A DNA stretch of 64,000 nucleotides from a bacterium (GTDB lineage: Bacteria > UBA8248 > JACPRG01 > G963555815). The stretch spans positions 160,001 through 224,000 of the forward strand of contig CAUVWX020000001.1 of the NCBI GenBank assembly GCA_963555815.3, read 5' to 3'. Both the position numbers and the translations under genes were made by a program. Under the pieces are notes generated by a model. The model made no database searches, was not told the DNA's origin, and saw only the letters and a list, made by a program, of their open reading frames with translations. Shown here piece by piece: positions 53,812-62,139 of this stretch; positions within the stretch are counted from its first letter, which is position 1, and each line of letters starts with the position of its first letter.

Positions 53812-54014
53812 ACAGGAACTTCCTCATGGAATTTTTAAAGGCCTCGGCACGGAATCTCTCTACCCACCATTTTGCCGGAACCTCCTGAGAGGAGATAGCC
53901 CTTTTCCAAAAAACTCCAAATCCCTGGCTCATCTGGATCATATTTGAGATTGATGAGAGGATATCCTGATTTCATTCTGAGCGCAGTTGGCAAAACCCAT
54001 AAAGGAGCGGTGTT

Positions 54015-55265
54015 CTGAAGAAGACTGTCTTCCTCGACTGGCACAAAAAGGCCGGGGCCAAGGTGGTTGAATTTGGCGGGTGGGAGATGCCCCTCCAATA
54101 CGCCCCGGGGATCCTGTCGGAGCACCTGACAACGAGAAAGTGGGCGGGCATTTTTGATATCTCCCACATGGGGAGGTTCAGGATTCGGGGCCGGGACGCC
54201 CTCCCCTTTCTCCAGCATGTCCTCACGAACGACGCCGCTTCCCTCGAGCCAAACCGGGCTCAATACACCATGATCCCCAACGAAGATGGGGGGGCCATCG
54301 ACGACGTTTACCTGTATCGGTTCGGAGAGGAGGATTTCCGGCTGGTTGTCAACGCCGCCAACACAGAGAAGGATCTCCAGTGGCTGAGCGCCAGGAAGGG
54401 CGGATTTCGGGAGGTCGTCTTGGAGGATGAGACCGATCCAATCGCGATGTTTTCGTTTCAGGGCCCAAAATCCCGCCAGATCCTGGAAAGCGTCCTCAAT
54501 CGTGCCAAAGGGCGCCTTCCCGCTCAAAAGCGAAATCACTTTGAGACCCTGGAGATCGACGGTTCCCCTGTCACCGTCTCCTGTACAGGCTATACGGGCG
54601 AACCGATCGGCTTTGAGATCTTTAGTCCGTCGGCCTCTGCCGTCTCCCTCTGGCAAGAGATCCTGGAACGCGGTGAGCCTGAGGGGCTTTTACCGATAGG
54701 CCTTGGGGCGAGGGATACCCTGCGCTTGGAGGCCGGGTTTCCCCTCTACGGCCACGAATTGGGCCTGGACCCCCTAGGAAAAGTCATCCCCCTCTTTGCA
54801 CTCGCCCTCGCCCGGTTTGCCATCAGCTTTTCCCCTGATAAAGGGGACTTTGTGGGGCGAGACATCCTCGAGAGACAGCACCGTGAAACCGCTTTATGGC
54901 GCAAAGGCGAACTCTCGCTTCCACTCGAGGAGCGAGTCGTCCCGAAAAGAATTTTCCCGGTTGCCGTCACAGGGCGGGGTGTCGCCAGGCAGGGATACGA
55001 AATTTATCAGGGCGATACACTAAAAGGCCATGTCACCAGCGGGACCGTCGTCCCCTACTGGATATTTCAAGGAGATGTATCTACCTCCACTCCGGGGGAA
55101 GAAAAGGGGAAGCGGGCCATCGCTCTGGCTTACCTGGACAGCGACGTATCAGAGGGTCAGCCCTTGGTGGTCACCGATGGGCGGAGATCATTTGAGGGGG
55201 TGGTGGCAAAGGCCCCTCTCAAAACGAACGCTCCCCCCTATGCCAGACCCGTTCTCTACTCTTAA
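54015..55265 (+). CDS. gcvT: Glycine cleavage system aminomethyltransferase T; probable CTG start
   Basis: EFGGWEMP, FDISHMG, TGYTGE, GLGARDTLRLEAG; conserved LKKT...WH N-terminus lies upstream of the annotated GTG 54063. Confidence 0.94.
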   Translation: MKKTVFLDWHKKAGAKVVEFGGWEMPLQYAPGILSEHLTTRKWAGIFDISHMGRFRIRGRDALPFLQHVLTNDAASLEPNRAQYTMIPNEDGGAIDDVYLYRFGEEDFRLVVNAANTEKDLQWLSARKGGFREVVLEDETDPIAMFSFQGPKSRQILESVLNRAKGRLPAQKRNHFETLEIDGSPVTVSCTGYTGEPIGFEIFSPSASAVSLWQEILERGEPEGLLPIGLGARDTLRLEAGFPLYGHELGLDPLGKVIPLFALALARFAISFSPDKGDFVGRDILERQHRETALWRKGELSLPLEERVVPKRIFPVAVTGRGVARQGYEIYQGDTLKGHVTSGTVVPYWIFQGDVSTSTPGEEKGKRAIALAYLDSDVSEGQPLVVTDGRRSFEGVVAKAPLKTNAPPYARPVLYS

Positions 55266-55280: not shown

Positions 55281-56963
55281 TCACTGCAAGGGGTTTCGAT
55301 GGCGAACAGGCGGGCGGGCCTCCCCCGACCTGAAGTCGGGGGAAACCCCGAAGGGGTGGGCGTGGTCCGGGCTCTTTTTGGGGCCGCTGAACGAGGCCCC
55401 CGAGACCTCGTCCGGATCGACAATCCGGATCTGGCCGCCTTGACGGTGCTCATACTTCATGGCCGAGAGCTGGCCCACGAGGAGTTCCAGGTCCTTCCGA
55501 GGGAGTCCTTCTTCTGAAAGGGAGATCTCCCCCTCCTCAAAAGCCTTGCGAAGCCCCCAGAAGAGATCGGCCTTGAGGTTCGCGTAATACTCGGGCTCCG
55601 AGGAGGAGGCGCCAAGAAGGATGGGGAGGACCGAGACCCCCGCCTCTCGAAGGATGTCCGTCACGCCCCCTCCGACCCCGGTGTCATCCACGGCCACCAC
55701 GTCGGCCTTCCACTCCCGGGCGAGCCTCTTAGCCTCCCCCGCGGTCTGGGTCAGGCTCTGCCTCCTTCGCTGGCGGACGTGAAGGAGTTTTGCGCCTTCG
55801 ATGAGGGAGAAGACGGTGAGGTTTTTTCCGTAACGGGCCACGTCGACCCCAAGCGCCCTTCTTTTTCCTTCGTAGGCCTTGCCAGGGCCGATCTGGGCCG
55901 CCTCGATCCAGGAGAGGGGGATGAGGGTGTCCTCCCCCTCGTCCGGGAATTCGCCGAGGACCCGGGCCTGATAGATGGACGAGTCCTCGCCCCATTCGGC
56001 CTTCCGGGTCCTGACCCACGCCCTGGAGATCCGGGGGCAGATGGGCGTATTCGAGGGAATGGCCTTCCCGTTTTCCCACCGCCCAAGGCACGGGATATGA
56101 AAGGTCTTCCAAGTGGACCGGAGCTTTGTAAAAACTTTATAAAAATAGCCGTGGCGGGAGCCCGGCGTGCTGAGAAGGAGAAGCTTTGCCTCCTCGGTCA
56201 GGGCCCCCTGGATGGCGTCGAAGATCCCGTCCGAGACCCCCTTCGCCTCATCGATGATGTAGAGGAGATAAGGGGCGTGAAAGCCTTCCAGATTCTCGGG
56301 CCGGCCGGCCGAGATGCCGGCTGAAAACCACTCCTCCTCATAATCCCTCACCGCCATGCGGGTCTGGGAGAGGGTGAAAGAACCCTCAAGGGCGGAGCCC
56401 CGGACCCACCGGTGGATCTCGGCCCAAAAAACGTCCCGGACCTGTTTTTCGAAGGTCGGGGCCGTCGTGGGAACCTTTGACATGGGCCGGATCGCGAGGA
56501 ACCAGAGGTCGGCCCAGGCCCCCGTCGCCGTCTTCCCCGGTCCGTGGCCGCTTCGCACCGCCACGGCAGGATATTCGGCGATGGCCTCCAGGATGTCCGC
56601 CTGATAGGGCTCCGGCTTCGCCTTTAGAAAATCCTCAACGAAAGCAACGGGGTGATCGAAGTAGTGGGTGAACCCCTGAACCGCTTGATCGAGAAGAGCG
56701 GCGGTCTCGTTCGCTTCGGTTGAACTCTTGGCGAGTTCAAGATTCTTTTGAGCGTTCGTGGACGTTTTTGTCTGATGGGTCTTCTTTTCTGAGCTCTGCG
56801 GCGTGGATGGCGATCTGGGCGAGGTCCGAGATGGCCTCGGCCCCGATTTTTTCTTTTCCGGCCCACTTTTCGGCCAGGAAGATGAGATAGCGTGCTCGCT
56901 CCTTTTCCGGGATGTCATCGGCTCCTGCCCGCTCGGCGATCTCGAGAAAGGCCCAGGGGCCAT
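55281..56963 (-). CDS. Phage terminase large subunit; start uncertain
   Basis: PEPYQ adenine-binding motif, VAVRSGHGPGKT Walker A, YIIDEA Walker B, STP, RNase H-like LGVDVARYG / VDDTGVGGGVTD / KSPD. Confidence 0.9.
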   Translation of the reverse strand: MAPGPFSRSPSGQEPMTSRKRSEHAISSSWPKSGPEKKKSGPRPSRTSPRSPSTPQSSEKKTHQTKTSTNAQKNLELAKSSTEANETAALLDQAVQGFTHYFDHPVAFVEDFLKAKPEPYQADILEAIAEYPAVAVRSGHGPGKTATGAWADLWFLAIRPMSKVPTTAPTFEKQVRDVFWAEIHRWVRGSALEGSFTLSQTRMAVRDYEEEWFSAGISAGRPENLEGFHAPYLLYIIDEAKGVSDGIFDAIQGALTEEAKLLLLSTPGSRHGYFYKVFTKLRSTWKTFHIPCLGRWENGKAIPSNTPICPRISRAWVRTRKAEWGEDSSIYQARVLGEFPDEGEDTLIPLSWIEAAQIGPGKAYEGKRRALGVDVARYGKNLTVFSLIEGAKLLHVRQRRRQSLTQTAGEAKRLAREWKADVVAVDDTGVGGGVTDILREAGVSVLPILLGASSSEPEYYANLKADLFWGLRKAFEEGEISLSEEGLPRKDLELLVGQLSAMKYEHRQGGQIRIVDPDEVSGASFSGPKKSPDHAHPFGVSPDFRSGEARPPVRHRNPLQ

Positions 56964-57111
56964 GGCCTTCGAGGAGTTTTTGGCTTTCAGAATTCGCTTT
57001 CGACATAGGTATTATGCGTTTTTTGACCGTGCGGGTCTTTGGTGCCGCCCGCACCCTCTTCTTTCCAGTGCTCACTCTTGCCAACGAAAGATCTCCCGGA
57101 GGCTTTTTCAA
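56737..57111 (-). CDS. Hypothetical protein, terminase small subunit position
   Basis: Immediately upstream of and overlapping terL; helical, basic N-terminus; role inferred from position only. Confidence 0.45.
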   Translation of the reverse strand: MKKPPGDLSLARVSTGKKRVRAAPKTRTVKKRIIPMSKANSESQKLLEGHGPWAFLEIAERAGADDIPEKERARYLIFLAEKWAGKEKIGAEAISDLAQIAIHAAELRKEDPSDKNVHERSKES

Positions 57112-57217
57112 TCTCTTCGGCCTGTTGCTATGAATTCGGGGATGACAGGAGGCACAGAGGGTTTAAAATCAGGGGGTCAGTTTTCTCCGTTCAACGTTTT
57201 CCAAGAGGAGAGAAGAT

Positions 57218-57457
57218 ATGGATTCCCTGACGAAGACCGCCCTCTGGCTCATCGCCCTCGCCCTCTGGGGTTTGTTGCTGAGACCCCTTGTTCTCCCCAC
57301 GCCCCTTGGGGCCCAGGGGATGATGGACGTCAACATCGCCGCTATCAGCGGCAGCTCCATTTTGACGAACTCGCTCGACGTCAACATCAGAGAAGTGAGC
57401 GGCAACCGCATTGGGGGCTCGATCCCCGTGACCCAGCTCCCTGTGACCCAGGAATGA
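57218..57457 (+). CDS. Small exported/membrane protein, antisense within the phage module
   Basis: GAGGAG RBS, signal-like hydrophobic N-terminus, repeated DVNIxxxSG motif. Confidence 0.7.
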   Translation: MDSLTKTALWLIALALWGLLLRPLVLPTPLGAQGMMDVNIAAISGSSILTNSLDVNIREVSGNRIGGSIPVTQLPVTQE

Positions 57458-57545
57458 AAAGATTCTCAGCGGTCTTTAAAGAGGCAGATAACCAGAGGGT
57501 ATAGGAGCCCGGCATCCGCCTGTGTTTCAGCGGTCTGGAATTTTT

Positions 57546-58601
57546 TCAGCCAACCCTTGGGACGAGCTGAAGGCGCTCTCGTCTTCGAAGGCGTTTTTCA
57601 ATTTCCAGGGCAAGGCGATCGATGTCCCGGTCGCTCCTGATCTGGGCCCCATGGAAAGCCCCCCGCTCAAACCGGACCTGAAAGGGTCTGGATTGCCGCT
57701 CAAGCAGGCCCATCAGACGGTCCATGCGTCCCTCCAGGCCAAAATTCCTCGGCGCACCGAAGGAGTGCATCGGCTCTCTTAAATCCCCGGCGAAGGGGTT
57801 GAGCTCCCTTGGGACAATCGCCTCCCCCCGGTGAAGAAAGGCCAGCATGTCCTGCGGGACGAACGGCGTTCCCTGCTGGAAAAAGCCGCCGATGATGGGG
57901 ATCTTCTTCACAAACTTTGTGACAGGGTCCAGGAGTTTGTCGAGGAACGGGATACCGCCGCCTCCGCCTGACGCGAATGGCGCGGTCCCTGGACCCGCTC
58001 CACCCGTTCCCATGGCCGAGAGGACCTTTATCAGAAGTTTGATGGCCTCCGAGGTGGCGAACTTGATGACGGCCTTCAGCATGGCGTCCATGGCCTCCTG
58101 CCAGACGTCCTTCATGCTGTTGGTCCCCTTGATAAGGTCAAAGATGCCGTTGTTGATCTCCGTAAAGGTCCTTATGCCAACTAGCGCCATGCCCTCGTGG
58201 AGCTTGGCAAATTGACTCTCAAGACCCTTAACAAAGCCTCCCGTGGCATCCGTGAACTGGGACCACAGGAAGCTCTGTATCTGAAGACTGGTTGCGGTGG
58301 TCTCCTGGGCCTTCTGGAGGAAGGAGAGGTACTCCTGCTCTCTCTGGCACTCCAGGGTAATCTCATTCGTGAGCGTATCCAGGCGAAGCCTGGACTCTTC
58401 CTGGGCCTGAGTGAATGCGTCCCTGGAGGCTGTCTCAATCTGCCTGAACCCGGCGGTGAGCTCCGGGGTCATCCCCGAGAATTCCCGCCTGACCCCTTTC
58501 AGGCTGCGCCTAAACCCCAGGGACCCCTCCTGCAGATCCCGGAAGGCCGCCTTGGCAATCCCGGCGTCCGCCACGATATCAATCTGAATGCGGTTCGCCA
58601 C
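57546..58601 (-). CDS. Short phage tail tape measure protein (351 aa)
   Basis: N-terminal RIQIDIVAD, helical core, C-terminal FQQGTPFVPQDMLAFLHRGEAIVP; directly downstream of the TAC pair. Confidence 0.8.
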   Translation of the reverse strand: MANRIQIDIVADAGIAKAAFRDLQEGSLGFRRSLKGVRREFSGMTPELTAGFRQIETASRDAFTQAQEESRLRLDTLTNEITLECQREQEYLSFLQKAQETTATSLQIQSFLWSQFTDATGGFVKGLESQFAKLHEGMALVGIRTFTEINNGIFDLIKGTNSMKDVWQEAMDAMLKAVIKFATSEAIKLLIKVLSAMGTGGAGPGTAPFASGGGGGIPFLDKLLDPVTKFVKKIPIIGGFFQQGTPFVPQDMLAFLHRGEAIVPRELNPFAGDLREPMHSFGAPRNFGLEGRMDRLMGLLERQSRPFQVRFERGAFHGAQIRSDRDIDRLALEIEKRLRRRERLQLVPRVG

Positions 58602-58652
58602 CTCTTCTCCCCTGCGAATGCCACGATCGGATCAGGCCGAGTGTATGGATAT

Positions 58653-59021
58653 TCAGGAGACAAACTTTTGTTTGTGAGCGGCTTCCGTGAGCTCAGTTCT
58701 TTTTCGCCGCTCTGAGAGAAACCGGTGGATCTCCATAAGCCCACGAAGAAATTTCTGTGCCTCCTCCTCGGTCAACCGAAGGCTGAGAACGTCGAAGATG
58801 AGGTCGGGGGCCCACCCCAAGTCCCGGGCGAGGTCCGTCGAGAGAAGCTCATAGGCCTCAAGGGCCCTTCGGTCGGTGACGGACAGAGGCGGAAGTTGAA
58901 AGACCGGACAGCGGGGACAGTCCGGCTCAAAATCCACTTCTTCCTCTGAAAGTTCCTGGCAGTTGGCGCAGCTGACCCGGGGATAATCTAGCCGGACCCC
59001 GAGCCACCTTCGGAGTTTCCC
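58653..59021 (-). CDS. Tail assembly chaperone T part, reached by -1 frameshift (GT fusion about 238 aa)
   Basis: -1 frame ORF opening across G GGA AAC; CANC...CPRC motif; ends just before the tape measure gene. Confidence 0.75.
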   Translation of the reverse strand, partial: GKLRRWLGVRLDYPRVSCANCQELSEEEVDFEPDCPRCPVFQLPPLSVTDRRALEAYELLSTDLARDLGWAPDLIFDVLSLRLTEEEAQKFLRGLMEIHRFLSERRKRTELTEAAHKQKFVS

Positions 59022-59368
59022 AAGGGGTTCTCCTCTTTGGATGAAACCCCCAGGAGACACCGGGAGACGACCCGGTTCAAGACAGAGGGCGGAAGAAGAA
59101 ATTTATAGGCCCGCTCACAGGGGATTTCCTCTTCCTCTTTCCCGACGACCCCTTTCCAGTCCACGATGCAGTGATCGATCCAGTCCTCCTCGACCCCCTT
59201 CTGGTCCACCTCCGGGGTCTGGACCCCGCCGGGCTGCCATCGCGTCTGGGTGTGGCGCGTCTCAATCTCCCGCATCACCCTGCGGCTCAGCCTGCGGCAG
59301 ATGAGGACACTCTCTTCAAAGGGGACCTCGAACTGCTCGTCCTCGTCGATGATCTGAAGCTTGCCCAT
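58988..59368 (-). CDS. Tail assembly chaperone (gpG-like)
   Basis: IVDWKGV...EIPC motif typical of TACs; ends LGN at the slippery site; GGGGAGG RBS. Confidence 0.8.
   Translation of the reverse strand: MGKLQIIDEDEQFEVPFEESVLICRRLSRRVMREIETRHTQTRWQPGGVQTPEVDQKGVEEDWIDHCIVDWKGVVGKEEEEIPCERAYKFLLPPSVLNRVVSRCLLGVSSKEENPLGNSEGGSGSG
59015..59021 (-). other. -1 programmed frameshift heptamer G GGA AAC
   Basis: X XXY YYZ in the TAC reading frame, with upstream GAGGAG and a downstream 9-bp stem. Confidence 0.8.
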
Positions 59369-59397
59369 CCCGCTGTCCTCCCCCGATGTACCAGAGG

Positions 59398-59425
59398 CAA
59401 AAAGAAAGGGCCCCTTTCGGGCCCC
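59398..59425 (-). terminator. Intrinsic terminator in the late-gene leader
   Basis: GGGCCC-GAAAG-GGGCCC followed by TTTCTTTTT on the minus strand, between the promoter and the TAC start. Confidence 0.7.
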
Positions 59426-59442
59426 CGGTCGCGTTTCATCGA

Positions 59443-59483
59443 ATCTAAGCTTAGATATATGTCATACACTTATGTTTTGTCAA
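59443..59483 (-). promoter_or_regulatory. Putative late promoter with operator
   Basis: TTGACA (59478-59483) overlapping the upstream stop, imperfect AT-rich -10, palindrome ATCTAAGCTTAGAT, 12-mer shared with the 60830-60841 promoter. Confidence 0.6.
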
Positions 59484-59920
59484 GGGCCTTTTTTGTAAGT
59501 CTCAGTGGAACAATTCATTAGCGGGAGCCAGGAGCCGTCGCGGGTGGCGCGGGGTCGAAGGCGGCGGCGGTGGAACTCGGCCTCCGTCTTGTCGGCCGCC
59601 CCCTGATAAAGGCGTTTCAGCGTCGAGTGGTGCCTTCGAAAGGAGCGTTCAAGAGAAGACCAGCTCCGTGGGGCCTCCCCCGGGACGGGGTGTCGGCCCC
59701 AGAGAATCTCGGACTCCAGGGGAGAGCAGATCACAGAGACGGCCCGCTGGACCTCTGCGCAAAAGAGGAGGGCCAGGGGCTCTCCCCGTCTCTTTCTGGG
59801 CGGACCCCCCAGGCGGGGATCAAGGGGCAGCGGGGGGGCGAACGCCACGTGCGATCTCTCCTCCCAGTAGCGATCAAAAATCGCTTCCAGATAGCCCTGC
59901 GCTTCTTCAAGACGTCTCAT
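59480..59920 (-). CDS. Putative late-gene regulator (Q antiterminator / RinA-like, C-terminal HTH)
   Basis: RSWSSLERSFRRHHSTLKRLYQGA resembles a sigma-r4-type HTH; sits directly before the promoter and terminator. Confidence 0.5.
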   Translation of the reverse strand: MRRLEEAQGYLEAIFDRYWEERSHVAFAPPLPLDPRLGGPPRKRRGEPLALLFCAEVQRAVSVICSPLESEILWGRHPVPGEAPRSWSSLERSFRRHHSTLKRLYQGAADKTEAEFHRRRLRPRATRDGSWLPLMNCSTETYKKGP

Positions 59921-60161
59921 GGGGAAGCTCAGCTCCTCCCTCTGGCCCGGGGGAGCAGGGAATGTAAATTTTGAGAAGGGGCCCTTCCATATAAGTCGGA
60001 GGGGTCTCCGGTGAACGGCATTCAGCCCTTTCCCGCCGGGTCGGAGGCCGTCGGGTCGCCGAGTGGCCGTTCAGACAGAAAGGGACCTGATAGCTCCGTC
60101 CCCCGTCCCCGAGGACGAAGGTGGAACCGATGGGGGCCCCGCACCTCTGACACCGCTTCAT
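59907..60161 (-). CDS. Small Zn-ribbon-like hypothetical protein
   Basis: CQRC...CLNGH; overlaps the next gene's start. Confidence 0.55.
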   Translation of the reverse strand: MKRCQRCGAPIGSTFVLGDGGRSYQVPFCLNGHSATRRPPTRRERAECRSPETPPTYMEGPLLKIYIPCSPGPEGGAELPHETS

Positions 60162-60185
60162 GGCCAGCCCTTTCAGACTTCCAGC

Positions 60186-60738
60186 TCAATCGGTCTTCTG
60201 TGCCAGACCTCCATCCGCCGGACATGGCCCTCGAGACCGGCCAGATCTTCGCAGACTCCCCTCATAGGCCTCGCGGCCCACGCCAAAGAGGGCCGCCGCC
60301 TTCTTAAAGGCGTTCGTATAGGCGCCTTTCAGGGCGTCCGCCTTGAGCGAGGGAGGAATAGCCCCCGAAGGAGGACCGCTCGGCGATGGGCAAAAAGCCT
60401 CTTTGGCCAGGGTTTCCCACCTGAAGTTTCAGTCTCACCGTGGCCTCAAAGAGACATTTCCCCGCAGAGGTTTTCCGCTCATCGATCGAGATCACCTTGC
60501 CCCTCACCCGCCAGCGGGAAGGACCCAGAACCTCATTGAGACGATTGACGATGTACTGGTAGAAGAAGCCCACCGTGTCGTAGGGCCTCCCGGTCTCCGA
60601 AGCCTTCGTCCTTTCGATGGCCTCAGACGAAAGGGGCAGGGCCAACCTGCGGTAGGCCTTGTCCAAGAACTTTGCCGTGAGGGTCCCATTTGGGGAGACG
60701 ACCCTTCCCGATCTTCGCAGATTGCCGGTCTCAGCCAT
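60186..60738 (-). pseudogene. Rad52/Rad22 (Sak-like) single-strand annealing protein, frameshifted near 60345-60358
   Basis: YIVNRLNEVLGPSRW in frame 0; the conserved DALKGAYTNAFKKAAALFGVGREAY lies in the +1 frame, ending at TGA 60186. Confidence 0.75.
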
Positions 60739-60808
60739 TACCGTCTATCCTCCCAAGATGCCAGAAAAAAGCCCCAGAACCCCCGTTTCAAGTGGGGTGC
60801 GCTGGAAG

Positions 60809-60900
60809 GCTTAGATAAATATAAGTATAATACACTTATGTCAATAGGAAAATTAACATAAAAGCCACTTTATTTTGTCTAAGGACGTGCCTTATATTAA
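60809..60900. promoter_or_regulatory. Divergent AT-rich switch region between repressor and SSAP operon
   Basis: Minus-strand TTGACA (60839-60844); inverted repeat ATAAGT-N7-ACTTAT; motifs shared with the late promoter. Confidence 0.65.
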
Positions 60901-60927
60901 GGGGCAAGAAAAGAGGGGGAGGGACTC

Positions 60928-61545
60928 TTGGAAGACTCGCTCGGCCAAAAGCTCCGAAATATCCGGGAAGCCCAGCGGATGAGCCAGGGAAGACTTGAGG
61001 AGCTCACTGGGATCGACCGGAACTACATCAGCCGCATCGAGAACGACCACGTCGAGCCCAAGGCCTCCACCCTCACCTCCATCTGCCGGGGCCTTGGGGT
61101 ATCCCCCTCGGTCCTCTGGGGAGACGAGGAATCTCCCGGGGAGGAGGGGAACACTCCTGTCGTGGGCCATGTCAGCGGGGGCGAATCAGAACACCTTTGG
61201 GGAGACGCGGACCTCCCGACGGGGGAAGGGTTCGTCCTCCTTCAAGATCCCTACTCCTCCCATGACCCGAACACCTTCGCCCTGGAGATCCGGGGGGACT
61301 CCATGTCGCCTAAGTTCGACCAGGGGGACCGGGTCATCGTCGCACCCGGGAAGGAGGCCCGAAGCGGCTGTCTCGCCGTCGTCCGGACAAAGGAGGGAAA
61401 GTCCTATTTCAAGCGGGTTTTCTTCCGGGGAAATGACGTCATCCTAGAGAGTTTTAATTCCGCCCACGGGCCCATCATTCTGAGGAAGCGGGACATTCAC
61501 TTCGCCTACCCCGTCATCTGCATCATCCCGCGGGACGCCTCCTGA
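60928..61545 (+). CDS. CI/LexA-like repressor: XRE HTH plus S24 peptidase domain
   Basis: LRNIREAQRMSQGRLEELTGIDRNYISRIE HTH; GDSM catalytic Ser; YFKR Lys; VGHVSGG cleavage-site region. Confidence 0.9.
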   Translation: MEDSLGQKLRNIREAQRMSQGRLEELTGIDRNYISRIENDHVEPKASTLTSICRGLGVSPSVLWGDEESPGEEGNTPVVGHVSGGESEHLWGDADLPTGEGFVLLQDPYSSHDPNTFALEIRGDSMSPKFDQGDRVIVAPGKEARSGCLAVVRTKEGKSYFKRVFFRGNDVILESFNSAHGPIILRKRDIHFAYPVICIIPRDAS

Positions 61546-61557
61546 AAGGTCATTCCC

Positions 61558-62004
61558 TTAAGCGCTCTCCGACCCGATCCCCCGGATTCGCGACCAGATC
61601 CCGTACACGAAGAGAAAGACCCCCAGGGCCTGAGCCACCCCGGAAAGGGCCAGGAGCCCCCCCACAAATCCGCCTCCTCCGCCTACGGCGAAGGGTTCCA
61701 CAAGGACCCTCAGAACGAGTCCTCCCACGACCAGCCCGTAGTTCCAGGAAGCCAGGACCGGGTCATAACGGCGTTTCCCCTCAGGAAAGCGCCCCTTGGC
61801 GAGAGGAAACATCCAATAGGCCACGCCCATCACCATGAGGCTCAGCCATCCGACCAGAGCCACATGGGTATGGGAAATTATGAAATGACGAGGGAGGAAT
61901 CCCCCTCCAAATCCCTGGTGAAGGAGGAAAGCTGCCCCGGATAGGAAGGTGAGAAGGAAAAATATCAAACTCGTCTTAATGAAAAGTCGTGAAAGGCTCG
62001 GCAT
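61558..62004 (-). CDS. Four-TM membrane protein (heme-copper oxidase subunit I-like fragment / NnrS-like)
   Basis: HTHVALVGWLSLMVMGVAYWMFP motif; AGGAGGAG RBS before ATG 62004. Confidence 0.6.
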   Translation of the reverse strand: MPSLSRLFIKTSLIFFLLTFLSGAAFLLHQGFGGGFLPRHFIISHTHVALVGWLSLMVMGVAYWMFPLAKGRFPEGKRRYDPVLASWNYGLVVGGLVLRVLVEPFAVGGGGGFVGGLLALSGVAQALGVFLFVYGIWSRIRGIGSESA

Positions 62005-62139
62005 TTCTTTTCTCCTCCTGCTGACAGGTAACTCCGTTTTGGCAGTCCCCAACCTGCCTCTTGACAAACGCGCCTCACTCCGTTACCCAACAGATCCCCC
62101 TCCTTCTTTCGGGGTTCTCCTCTCGGTGGGTAAAAGAAG

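What the first reader, a model, noticed from the sequence alone, without database searches (positions are those of the whole stretch)
55281..61545. Capsid-less, integrase-less 6.3-kb phage module keeping a genetic switch, tail chaperone/tape measure and terminase
Seen: CI-like repressor divergent from SSAP - Zn ribbon - HTH regulator - promoter/terminator - TAC(G/GT) - short tape measure - (antisense small gene) - terS-position ORF - terL, tightly packed between host genes. There is no portal, capsid, tail tube, baseplate, lysis or integrase gene, no visible att repeats, and composition looks host-like by eye. Established: lambdoid order is terminase-portal-capsid-tail-TAC-TMP, so TAC/TMP placed first and terminase last is rearranged and strongly pruned. 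Inference: three options are (a) a regulatory/packaging sub-cluster of a dispersed gene-transfer agent or satellite, (b) an inducible anti-phage decoy that poisons tail assembly and DNA packaging, or (c) a decaying prophage. The SSAP frameshift and odd terL 3' end favour partial decay; the intact cis-signals favour recent function.
Basis: partly seen in the sequence, partly recalled or inferred. Interest (0 to 1): 0.8.

Follow-up and report, generated by a model that had tools for sequence, protein, structure and literature searches.

The report
Host-kept phage tail-hijacking kit
This bacterium and a sister species keep, at one chromosomal site and under purifying selection, a 6-kb set of phage switch, tail-assembly and DNA-packaging genes without capsid or integrase, which likely jams or hijacks the assembly of related phages, though its terminase is broken in some relatives.

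Summary
The module is real and is not a neutral prophage wreck or an assembly collapse. The same pruned, rearranged gene order sits at the same site in a sister species (about 92% amino-acid identity) and in contigs from three other studies. CI, TerL, TAC, G/T, the TMP C-terminus, the sigma-4-like regulator and SSAP show dN/dS 0.11-0.25, like host genes (median 0.23). No portal, capsid or tube gene, even as a remnant, was found in this 95.7%-complete genome. The TMP is a mosaic: its middle follows a Mu-like prophage in two lineages and a different family element in the third. PLE satellites use a similar TAC+TMP set to build chimeric tails. Best reading (0.42, inferred): a grounded, satellite-like kit that jams or hijacks assembly of related phages. 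Against it, TerL is broken in two of three lineages and nothing was tested in vivo; slow decay of a once-complete element is the main rival (0.30). The SSAP frameshift is strain-private. In passing: two other genera of the family carry a complete, integrase-less virion cluster at a shared site, a gene-transfer-agent candidate.

The parts
60928..61545 (+). CI-like repressor, 205 aa (HTH_3 + Peptidase_S24; Ser-Gly at the usual Ala-Gly cleavage position)
   Evidence: dN/dS 0.11 against G001; 39-40% identical to the CI of the G002/G006 clusters
60765..60844 (-). Early promoter (-35 TTGACA at 60844-60839, overlapping the palindrome at 60821-60839) and leader hairpin; function inferred
   Evidence: sequence; not called by the scanner; -35 kept and palindrome drifted in G001
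60186..60738 (-). Rad52/22-type single-strand annealing protein; frameshifted near 60348 in this strain, 183 aa in other strains
   Evidence: dN/dS 0.25
59907..60161 (-). Small Cys-motif (Zn-ribbon-like) ORF; weakly constrained; its 3' end differs by one base from other strains
   Evidence: dN/dS 0.76, CI 0.30-1.95
59480..59920 (-). Sigma-70 region-4-like regulator, 146 aa, in late-activator position
   Evidence: dN/dS 0.25; directly upstream of terS in G002
59400..59495 (-). Late promoter (-35 at 59483-59478) followed by an intrinsic-terminator hairpin (59426-59406); resembles the promoter upstream of terS in G006/G002
   Evidence: (top terminator hit)
58988..59368 (-). Tail assembly chaperone (G), 126 aa, with -1 slippery site at 59021-59015
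   Evidence: dN/dS 0.18
58653..59060 (-). -1 frame extension (T part of G/T; about 238 aa fused product predicted)
   Evidence: dN/dS 0.25
57546..58601 (-). Short mosaic tape-measure protein, 351 aa
   Evidence: C-terminal 147 codons dN/dS 0.13
57142..57457 (+). Antisense moron-like gene (57218-57457, 79 aa, hydrophobic N-terminus) with its own promoter-like site (57142-57169)
   Evidence: dN/dS 0.53, CI 0.26-1.23
56737..57111 (-). Terminase small subunit (start at 57111 or 57006)
   Evidence: dN/dS 0.41, CI 0.18-1.01
55281..56918 (-). Terminase large subunit; Walker A/B kept; nearest ATG (56918) lies inside terS; last helix replaced; D300N and S456P derived in this lineage
   Evidence: dN/dS 0.17, 0.06-0.17 by region past codon 20
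54063..55265 (+). Host flank: gcvT (converges on terL)
61558..62067 (-). Host flank: membrane protein with a weak COX1 match (converges on CI)

Best explanation
This is a vertically inherited, immobile phage-derived module under purifying selection that likely works as a grounded, satellite-like kit: when CI is predicted to be cleaved on stress or infection, its TAC, G/T and short TMP would enter or jam the tails of a related siphophage, and its TerS/TerL would divert that phage's heads onto host DNA. SHOWN: same site and same junctions in two species; host-like dN/dS; no structural genes found in the genome; intact G/T slippery site; TMP mosaic with parts most like a Mu-like prophage of the genus. 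INFERRED: RecA-dependent induction; read-through of the late terminator by the sigma-4-like regulator; cross-assembly with helper tube and tail-tip proteins; lower infectious yield; packaging of chromosomal DNA; a role for the SSAP in the TMP swaps. The tail arm (CI, TAC, TMP; SSAP in most strains) is the conserved core, and the terminase arm looks dispensable now.
For: Orthologous module in G001 between gcvT and the COX1-like gene. Whole stretch in one contig in X6 and X8, in pieces in X3 and X5 (4 of 20 holder runs laid). dN/dS 0.11-0.25 with bootstrap intervals below 0.6 for 7 of 10 genes, against a host median of 0.23, n=261. Module dS (0.13-0.37) is comparable to or above the host median 0.14, so the pruned form is as old as the species split. 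No portal, capsid, neck, tube, tip or fibre remnant by 20 family profiles or queries on six frames, with TerS found as control, nor by library models. TMP: the 110 aa before the Gly linker are 49-50% identical to the Mu-like prophage's TMP in G000 and the third lineage, with no hit to G002/G006. In G001 that segment hits G002 (34%) and G006 (27%) and not the Mu-like TMP. The C-terminal 140 aa are 91-93% identical within the genus, 56-57% to the Mu-like TMP and 38-39% to G002. Monophyly of the middle segment is rejected, p-AU 0.005. CI, TAC, TMP and SSAP are whole in the third lineage. Precedent: PLE satellites carry TAC, TMP and hub at 19-41% identity to the helper's and build shorter chimeric tails (bioRxiv 10.1101/2025.01.29.635557, passages). 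The module's TAC is 37-40% identical to the Mu-like TAC.
Against: No expression or functional data; no RNA holder was listed. TerL is broken in 2 of 3 lineages: two -1 indels in G001 (may be errors, since 16 of 24 background frameshifts are -1) and 30-aa and 4-aa deletions plus a split in the third lineage. Here it has lost its last helix and has no start codon at the family position. Frameshifts are in excess in the module: 4 in about 5.4 kb against 24 in 268 kb, P 0.0016; 3 of 10 genes against 20 of 264, P 0.035 (the background undercounts breaks on the G000 side). G001 carries both the module and a Mu-like prophage, so the module did not keep that phage out. G000 has no helper. The TMP swap can also be ordinary recombination with passing phages, the group tested was named after seeing the alignment, and long branches are involved. 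Purifying selection on defective prophages is a known general pattern (Bobay 2014, recalled; paper not held).
Confidence: 0.42

Rival explanations
1. Relic of a once-complete domesticated cluster or prophage, like the one in G002/G006: selection acted while partner structural genes existed elsewhere, these were lost recently, and the module is now in early decay.
For: G002 and G006 hold a virion cluster with the same CI, sigma-4 regulator, late-promoter motif, terS/terL, TAC and TMP type. TerL is broken in 2 of 3 lineages and frameshifts are in excess.
Against: It needs traceless loss of the structural half in both G000 and G001 within a small part of their divergence time. CI, TAC and TMP are whole in all three lineages. 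In the 21 module SNPs among the 40 of 92 rows shown, 10 are nonsynonymous and 11 synonymous, which still looks constrained.
Confidence: 0.3
2. Kept for CI (immunity or host regulation) and the moron-like membrane protein (superinfection exclusion, like HK97 gp15); the other genes ride along under weak selection against toxic misfolded products.
For: CI has the lowest dN/dS, 0.11. The antisense gene has its own promoter-like site, and its homologues lie just upstream of the TMP gene in G002, the position of HK97 gp15 (PMC3594210, passages).
Against: The antisense gene is among the least constrained (0.53), while TerL, TAC, TMP-C and the regulator each have intervals below 0.5. No sequence link to gp15 was found.
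Confidence: 0.13
3. Regulatory and packaging sub-cluster of a working dispersed GTA whose head-tail genes lie in unassembled sequence or belong to an unrelated family.
For: G000 is 95.7% complete, and conspecific contigs are 2.13 and 2.15 Mb against 2.08 Mb. G006's cluster is itself split by host-like genes.
Against: G001 lacks a second cluster too. TAC and TMP must match a tube of their own family, and none was found. TerL is broken in relatives.
Confidence: 0.08
4. Ordinary neutral prophage remnant or assembly collapse.
For: Strain-private frameshifts and broken TerL copies.
Against: Same junctions in a second species and in single contigs from 2 other studies; dN/dS far below 1; host-like GC and codon score.
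Confidence: 0.04

Closest known systems
PLE satellites of Vibrio cholerae (TAC + TMP + BhuB chimeric tails; bioRxiv 10.1101/2025.01.29.635557, passages read)
   Same: Carry TAC and a TMP without tube or capsid; 19-41% identity to the helper's parts; shorter tails. Module TAC is 37-40% and TMP segments 49-57% identical to a Mu-like phage of the genus.
   Different: PLEs are mobile (integrase and replicon recalled). This module has no integrase, att or replicon, has no hub, adds TerS/TerL and a CI switch, and is inherited across species.
EPIP satellites of Mycolicibacterium (PMC12822802, main text read)
   Same: Small element with TerS and TMP and no tail genes.
   Different: EPIPs have a serine integrase and head-tail adaptors and form particles; TerL, TAC and CI are not among their listed conserved genes.
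Tab, Tai and Rta tail-assembly blockers (PMC10884400 abstract and section 7; PMC11364771 passages)
   Same: Proposed outcome: infection proceeds but tails fail; the TMP C-terminus is the sensitive point for Tab.
   Different: These are dedicated single inhibitor proteins, not retained copies of the phage's own TAC, TMP and terminase. No homology to them was tested directly.
Gene transfer agents (RcGTA type, GafA regulator; search listing only; details recalled)
   Same: Fixed, vertically inherited phage genes under purifying selection, no replication or integrase, short TMP, sigma-4-like regulator.
   Different: No capsid, portal or tube found in the genome, so no particle of its own.
Domesticated or cryptic prophages (Bobay 2014, recalled; PMC7744054 passages)
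   Same: Pruned prophage kept at an orthologous site under purifying selection.
   Different: Incomplete prophages tend to lose terminase and keep integrase and tail fibre. This one did the reverse and was rearranged.

Membership tests
Domesticated (cryptic) prophage | Phage-derived genes at an orthologous site in related genomes | tested here: met
Domesticated (cryptic) prophage | Purifying selection on phage genes | tested here: met
   7 of 10 genes with dN/dS intervals below 0.6
Domesticated (cryptic) prophage | Unable to make a virion or excise alone | tested here: met
   (genome 95.7% complete)
Phage satellite (PLE/PICI type) | Integrase and att sites | tested here: not met
Phage satellite (PLE/PICI type) | Own replication module | tested here: not met
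   no replication gene among the module's ORFs by PHROG or Pfam
Phage satellite (PLE/PICI type) | Partial morphogenesis genes related to a helper's | tested here: met
   TAC 37-40%, TMP segments 49-57%, TerL 60% to the Mu-like prophage of G001
Phage satellite (PLE/PICI type) | Helper-induced packaging and transfer of the element | not testable with these tools
   needs induction or infection experiments
Gene transfer agent | Complete head-tail gene set in the genome | tested here: not met
Gene transfer agent | No integrase or replication; vertical inheritance | tested here: met
Gene transfer agent | Packages random host DNA | not testable with these tools
   needs particle sequencing
Tail-assembly-blocking defence (Tab/Tai/Rta) | Homology to a known inhibitor | tested here: inconclusive
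   PADLOC 2023 gives only generic HTH hits for CI and one E 0.008 hit for the TMP; that library predates these systems and they were not searched directly
Tail-assembly-blocking defence (Tab/Tai/Rta) | Blocks tail formation of an infecting phage | not testable with these tools
   needs phage challenge
Tailocin | Tube, tail tip, fibre and lysis genes | tested here: not met

The most novel reading that the evidence does not exclude
A host has permanently captured the piracy arm of a phage, an immobile satellite with no genome of its own to spread. It swaps its own chaperone and tape measure into the tails of invading relatives, points their heads at host DNA, and refreshes the tape measure by recombination with the phages it targets. 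It would be defence and helper-dependent gene transfer agent in one, built only from repurposed assembly proteins.
Probability: 0.3. Interest if true: 0.88.

Novelty: new variant of a known kind. Interest (0 to 1): 0.66.

Why it matters
Why defective prophages keep purifying selection on morphogenesis genes is an open question. Here the retained set is small and specific (switch, chaperone, tape measure, terminase), a candidate target phage is in hand (the Mu-like prophage of G001), and a complete sister cluster exists in two other genera, so the question can be tested gene by gene. If the best reading holds, it links satellites, GTAs and assembly-blocking defence, and is a bacterial analogue of restriction by endogenous viral structural proteins (analogy recalled). 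The G002/G006 cluster is a separate GTA candidate in a lineage where one literature search found no such report.

Tried and rejected
Shared operator as a marker of dispersed partner loci: the 12-mer occurs only twice in the genome, both inside the module, and is not conserved in G001. att repeats: none. G001 terL indels: 4 low-share runs laid on L011 held only fragments at 90-95% identity, apparently the window's species, so the indels stay unresolved. No RNA holder listed; no evidence either way. AlphaFold model of TerL: mean pLDDT 50.6, unusable. Hairpin folding z-scores -0.49, 0.19 and 1.81, not beyond shuffles. Rfam: one hit below its gathering score, treated as chance. ESM Atlas for the antisense protein: unnamed clusters only, low recognition. 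Regulator relatives: none in viral contigs, one 23-residue match in metagenome contigs. Viral TerL relatives reach at most 42% identity among the best 80 of 583, so no free phage of this clade was found. The first TMP segment tree had the G006 row out of frame and was redone. Site orthology with the G002/G006 cluster was rejected: most of their flanks map to G000 C1:550-614 kb, and only 2 genes map 13 kb from the module. The TerL tree does not place the module firmly against the Mu-like prophage (83/85 support). No CRISPR-like array by an exact-repeat scan. Earlier-findings look-ups returned nothing. Bobay 2014 could not be read. No complex prediction was run.
Full report
Setting. The window is G000:C1:160001-224000 of a 2.08-Mb, two-contig genome, 95.7% complete. 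A same-family genome is titled Nitrospinota bacterium.

Observation. All ten ORFs and their order are present. CI has an HTH, an S24 domain and the catalytic Ser and Lys. The SSAP is Rad52/22-like. The 146-aa regulator (pLDDT 74.7) matches sigma-70 region 4 structures only weakly, all E > 0.1, and has 3 convincing relatives among 10 hits in 1.84 billion representatives. TAC carries a GGGAAAC -1 site in phase, kept in G001. The ORF before terL is TerS by homology to G002/G006. No att repeats and no nearby tyrosine integrase were found. GC and codon score are host-like, except for the Zn-ribbon ORF.

No partner genes. tblastn with proteins called from nine relative loci found only the module itself among phage genes, apart from host-type amidase hits. 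Twenty family profiles or queries on six-frame translations gave no structural remnant; only TerS scored. Capsid phrog_29592 and portal phrog_10963 were found in 3 of 7 family genomes and tube PF18906 in 2 of 7, none in G000 and in G001 only within one prophage. PF05065 was found in 0 of 2 genomes, and phrog_21 only in that prophage. Conspecific contigs are 2.13-2.15 Mb, so 55-75 kb are unseen.

Inheritance. TerL matched 5 of 61 genomes, G000 included. G001 (same genus, about 92% amino-acid identity) has the same module, order and junctions at the same site. Of 20 runs holding the stretch I laid four from four studies: X6 and X8 span it in one contig, X3 and X5 in pieces. X5, X6 and X8 lack the SSAP frameshift and have one more base in the Zn-ribbon ORF; X3 equals the window; the long contigs show no indel in terL. 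A third lineage, known only from proteins on an 80,079-base contig, has whole CI, TAC, TMP and SSAP; that these proteins are neighbours is inferred from the shared contig length. gcvT has no module beside it in the five other family genomes.

Selection. G000 against G001 (Nei-Gojobori, 200 bootstraps): CI 0.11 [0.04-0.26], TerL 0.17 [0.12-0.24], TAC 0.18 [0.06-0.40], G/T 0.25 [0.11-0.49], TMP C-terminal 147 codons 0.13 [0.06-0.23], regulator 0.25 [0.15-0.42], SSAP 0.25 [0.09-0.56]. Not distinguishable from 1: TerS 0.41, antisense gene 0.53, Zn ribbon 0.76. Host genes have a median of 0.23 (5-95%: 0.12-0.46; n=261) and a median dS of 0.14. Module dS is 0.13-0.37, so the pruned form is as old as the split and selection acted on it.

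Decay. TerL is one ORF in 4 of 4 full-length records of the window's species. It has two -1 indels in G001, which are unresolved; such assemblies contain indel errors, and even recA is split in G006. In the third lineage it has 30-aa and 4-aa deletions and is split, yet keeps the ancestral C-terminus. In G000 and G001 the last helix is replaced and no start codon lies at the family position; D300N and S456P are G000-derived. H at the last acidic position, aligned to D in solved nucleases, is a family trait. Frameshifts are in excess (P 0.0016 and 0.035), with the background biased low.

Origin. Two kinds of relative exist. G001 holds a Mu-like prophage (transposase, MuB-like protein, Gam, amidase, full head and tail) whose TerL is 60%, TAC 37% and small antisense-type gene 63% identical to the module's, and whose TMP is about 750 aa. 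G002 and G006, two other genera, hold CI, the regulator, terS-terL-portal and capsid (G006 also tube, TAC and fibre), with no integrase, transposase or replicase recognised in the cluster. They share a site: 18 of 24 host-side ORFs are syntenic. CI, TerL, capsid and portal are 68, 69, 78 and 80% identical between them, against 64% for GcvT. That site is not the module's. The module's late promoter resembles the terS promoter of G006, so TAC-TMP were moved behind it and terS-terL behind them. Its early genes differ from theirs (SSAP and Zn ribbon against a Pam3 gp34-like gene), so common descent and separate capture of a related phage both remain open.

TMP mosaic. The C-terminal 140 aa are 91-93% identical across the three lineages and closer to the Mu-like TMP (56-57%) than to G002 (38-39%). 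The preceding 110 aa follow the Mu-like TMP in G000 and the third lineage (49-50%) but G002/G006 in G001 (34%, 27%). Monophyly of that segment is rejected (p-AU 0.005, six rows, long branches). In G001 the swap runs from the G/T 3' end to the Gly linker, brings about 0.7 kb of extra DNA and leaves an in-frame 378-aa TMP.

Mechanism (inferred). Stress or infection cleaves CI; the early operon makes the regulator; transcription passes the terminator at 59426-59406; TAC, G/T, TMP and terminase are made. With no tube or head of their own they can act only on a helper's parts. PLE satellites show that TAC and TMP at 19-41% identity are built into shorter chimeric tails (passages), and Tab shows that the TMP C-terminus is a sensitive point (section). 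Lacking integrase and origin, the module cannot spread itself, so any benefit is the host's: fewer infectious progeny and possibly transduction of host DNA. Broken TerL in relatives suggests the tail arm matters more. I give this 0.42, recent relic 0.30, CI/moron retention 0.13, hidden GTA half 0.08 and neutral remnant 0.04.

Novelty. Ten literature searches were run; those aimed at this architecture listed mobile satellites with a TMP and single-protein tail blockers, but no immobile host-fixed kit. The library lacks most subscription journals, and bioRxiv supplements (such as the PLE tables) were not seen. It is a member of the domesticated-prophage kind, fails membership of satellites and GTAs, and may work like the tail-piracy arm of a PLE. 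Verdict: new variant of a known kind, interest 0.66.

Noticed in passing
G006:C1:1665900-1709100 (L017-L019); G002 C27, C496, C398 (L020, L030, L055): Virion gene cluster with CI and sigma-4 regulator, no integrase, transposase or replicase recognised, at an orthologous site in two genera with host-like divergence: a GTA candidate. Not found in G003, G004 or G005 with these queries.
   Followed up: partly
L014:1000 to L015:10500 (G001:C6, about 99-128.5 kb): Mu-like prophage with siphophage tail; the transposase is in pieces. G000 has the flanking genes near C1:826-830 kb and no remnant.
   Followed up: partly
L055:2632-3766; L019:7881-10950: Repeated TMP N-terminal stubs alternating with small membrane-protein genes upstream of the TMP in G002 and G006; looks like a moron-insertion hotspot.
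   Followed up: no
G025 C136 (L022) and C171 (L061, L152): A genome of another family in the class has a regulator homologue and a terL-portal pair on separate short contigs.
   Followed up: no
window 56737-56918: terL's nearest ATG lies inside terS, giving about 60 codons of dual coding, open in G001 as well; terS dS is low there (0.06) but the counts are small.
   Followed up: partly
window 54012-54063: gcvT homology extends about 17 codons upstream of the first standard start; a CTG start behind a ribosome-binding site is possible.
   Followed up: no
L155:1441-4149 (G002): GcvT fused to a second domain in a 902-aa ORF.
   Followed up: no
P0002, P0025: A more divergent 150-aa regulator and a 206-aa CI on other short contigs point to further lineages with the module.
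   Followed up: no
G000 whole genome: No CRISPR-like array found by an exact-repeat scan.
   Followed up: no
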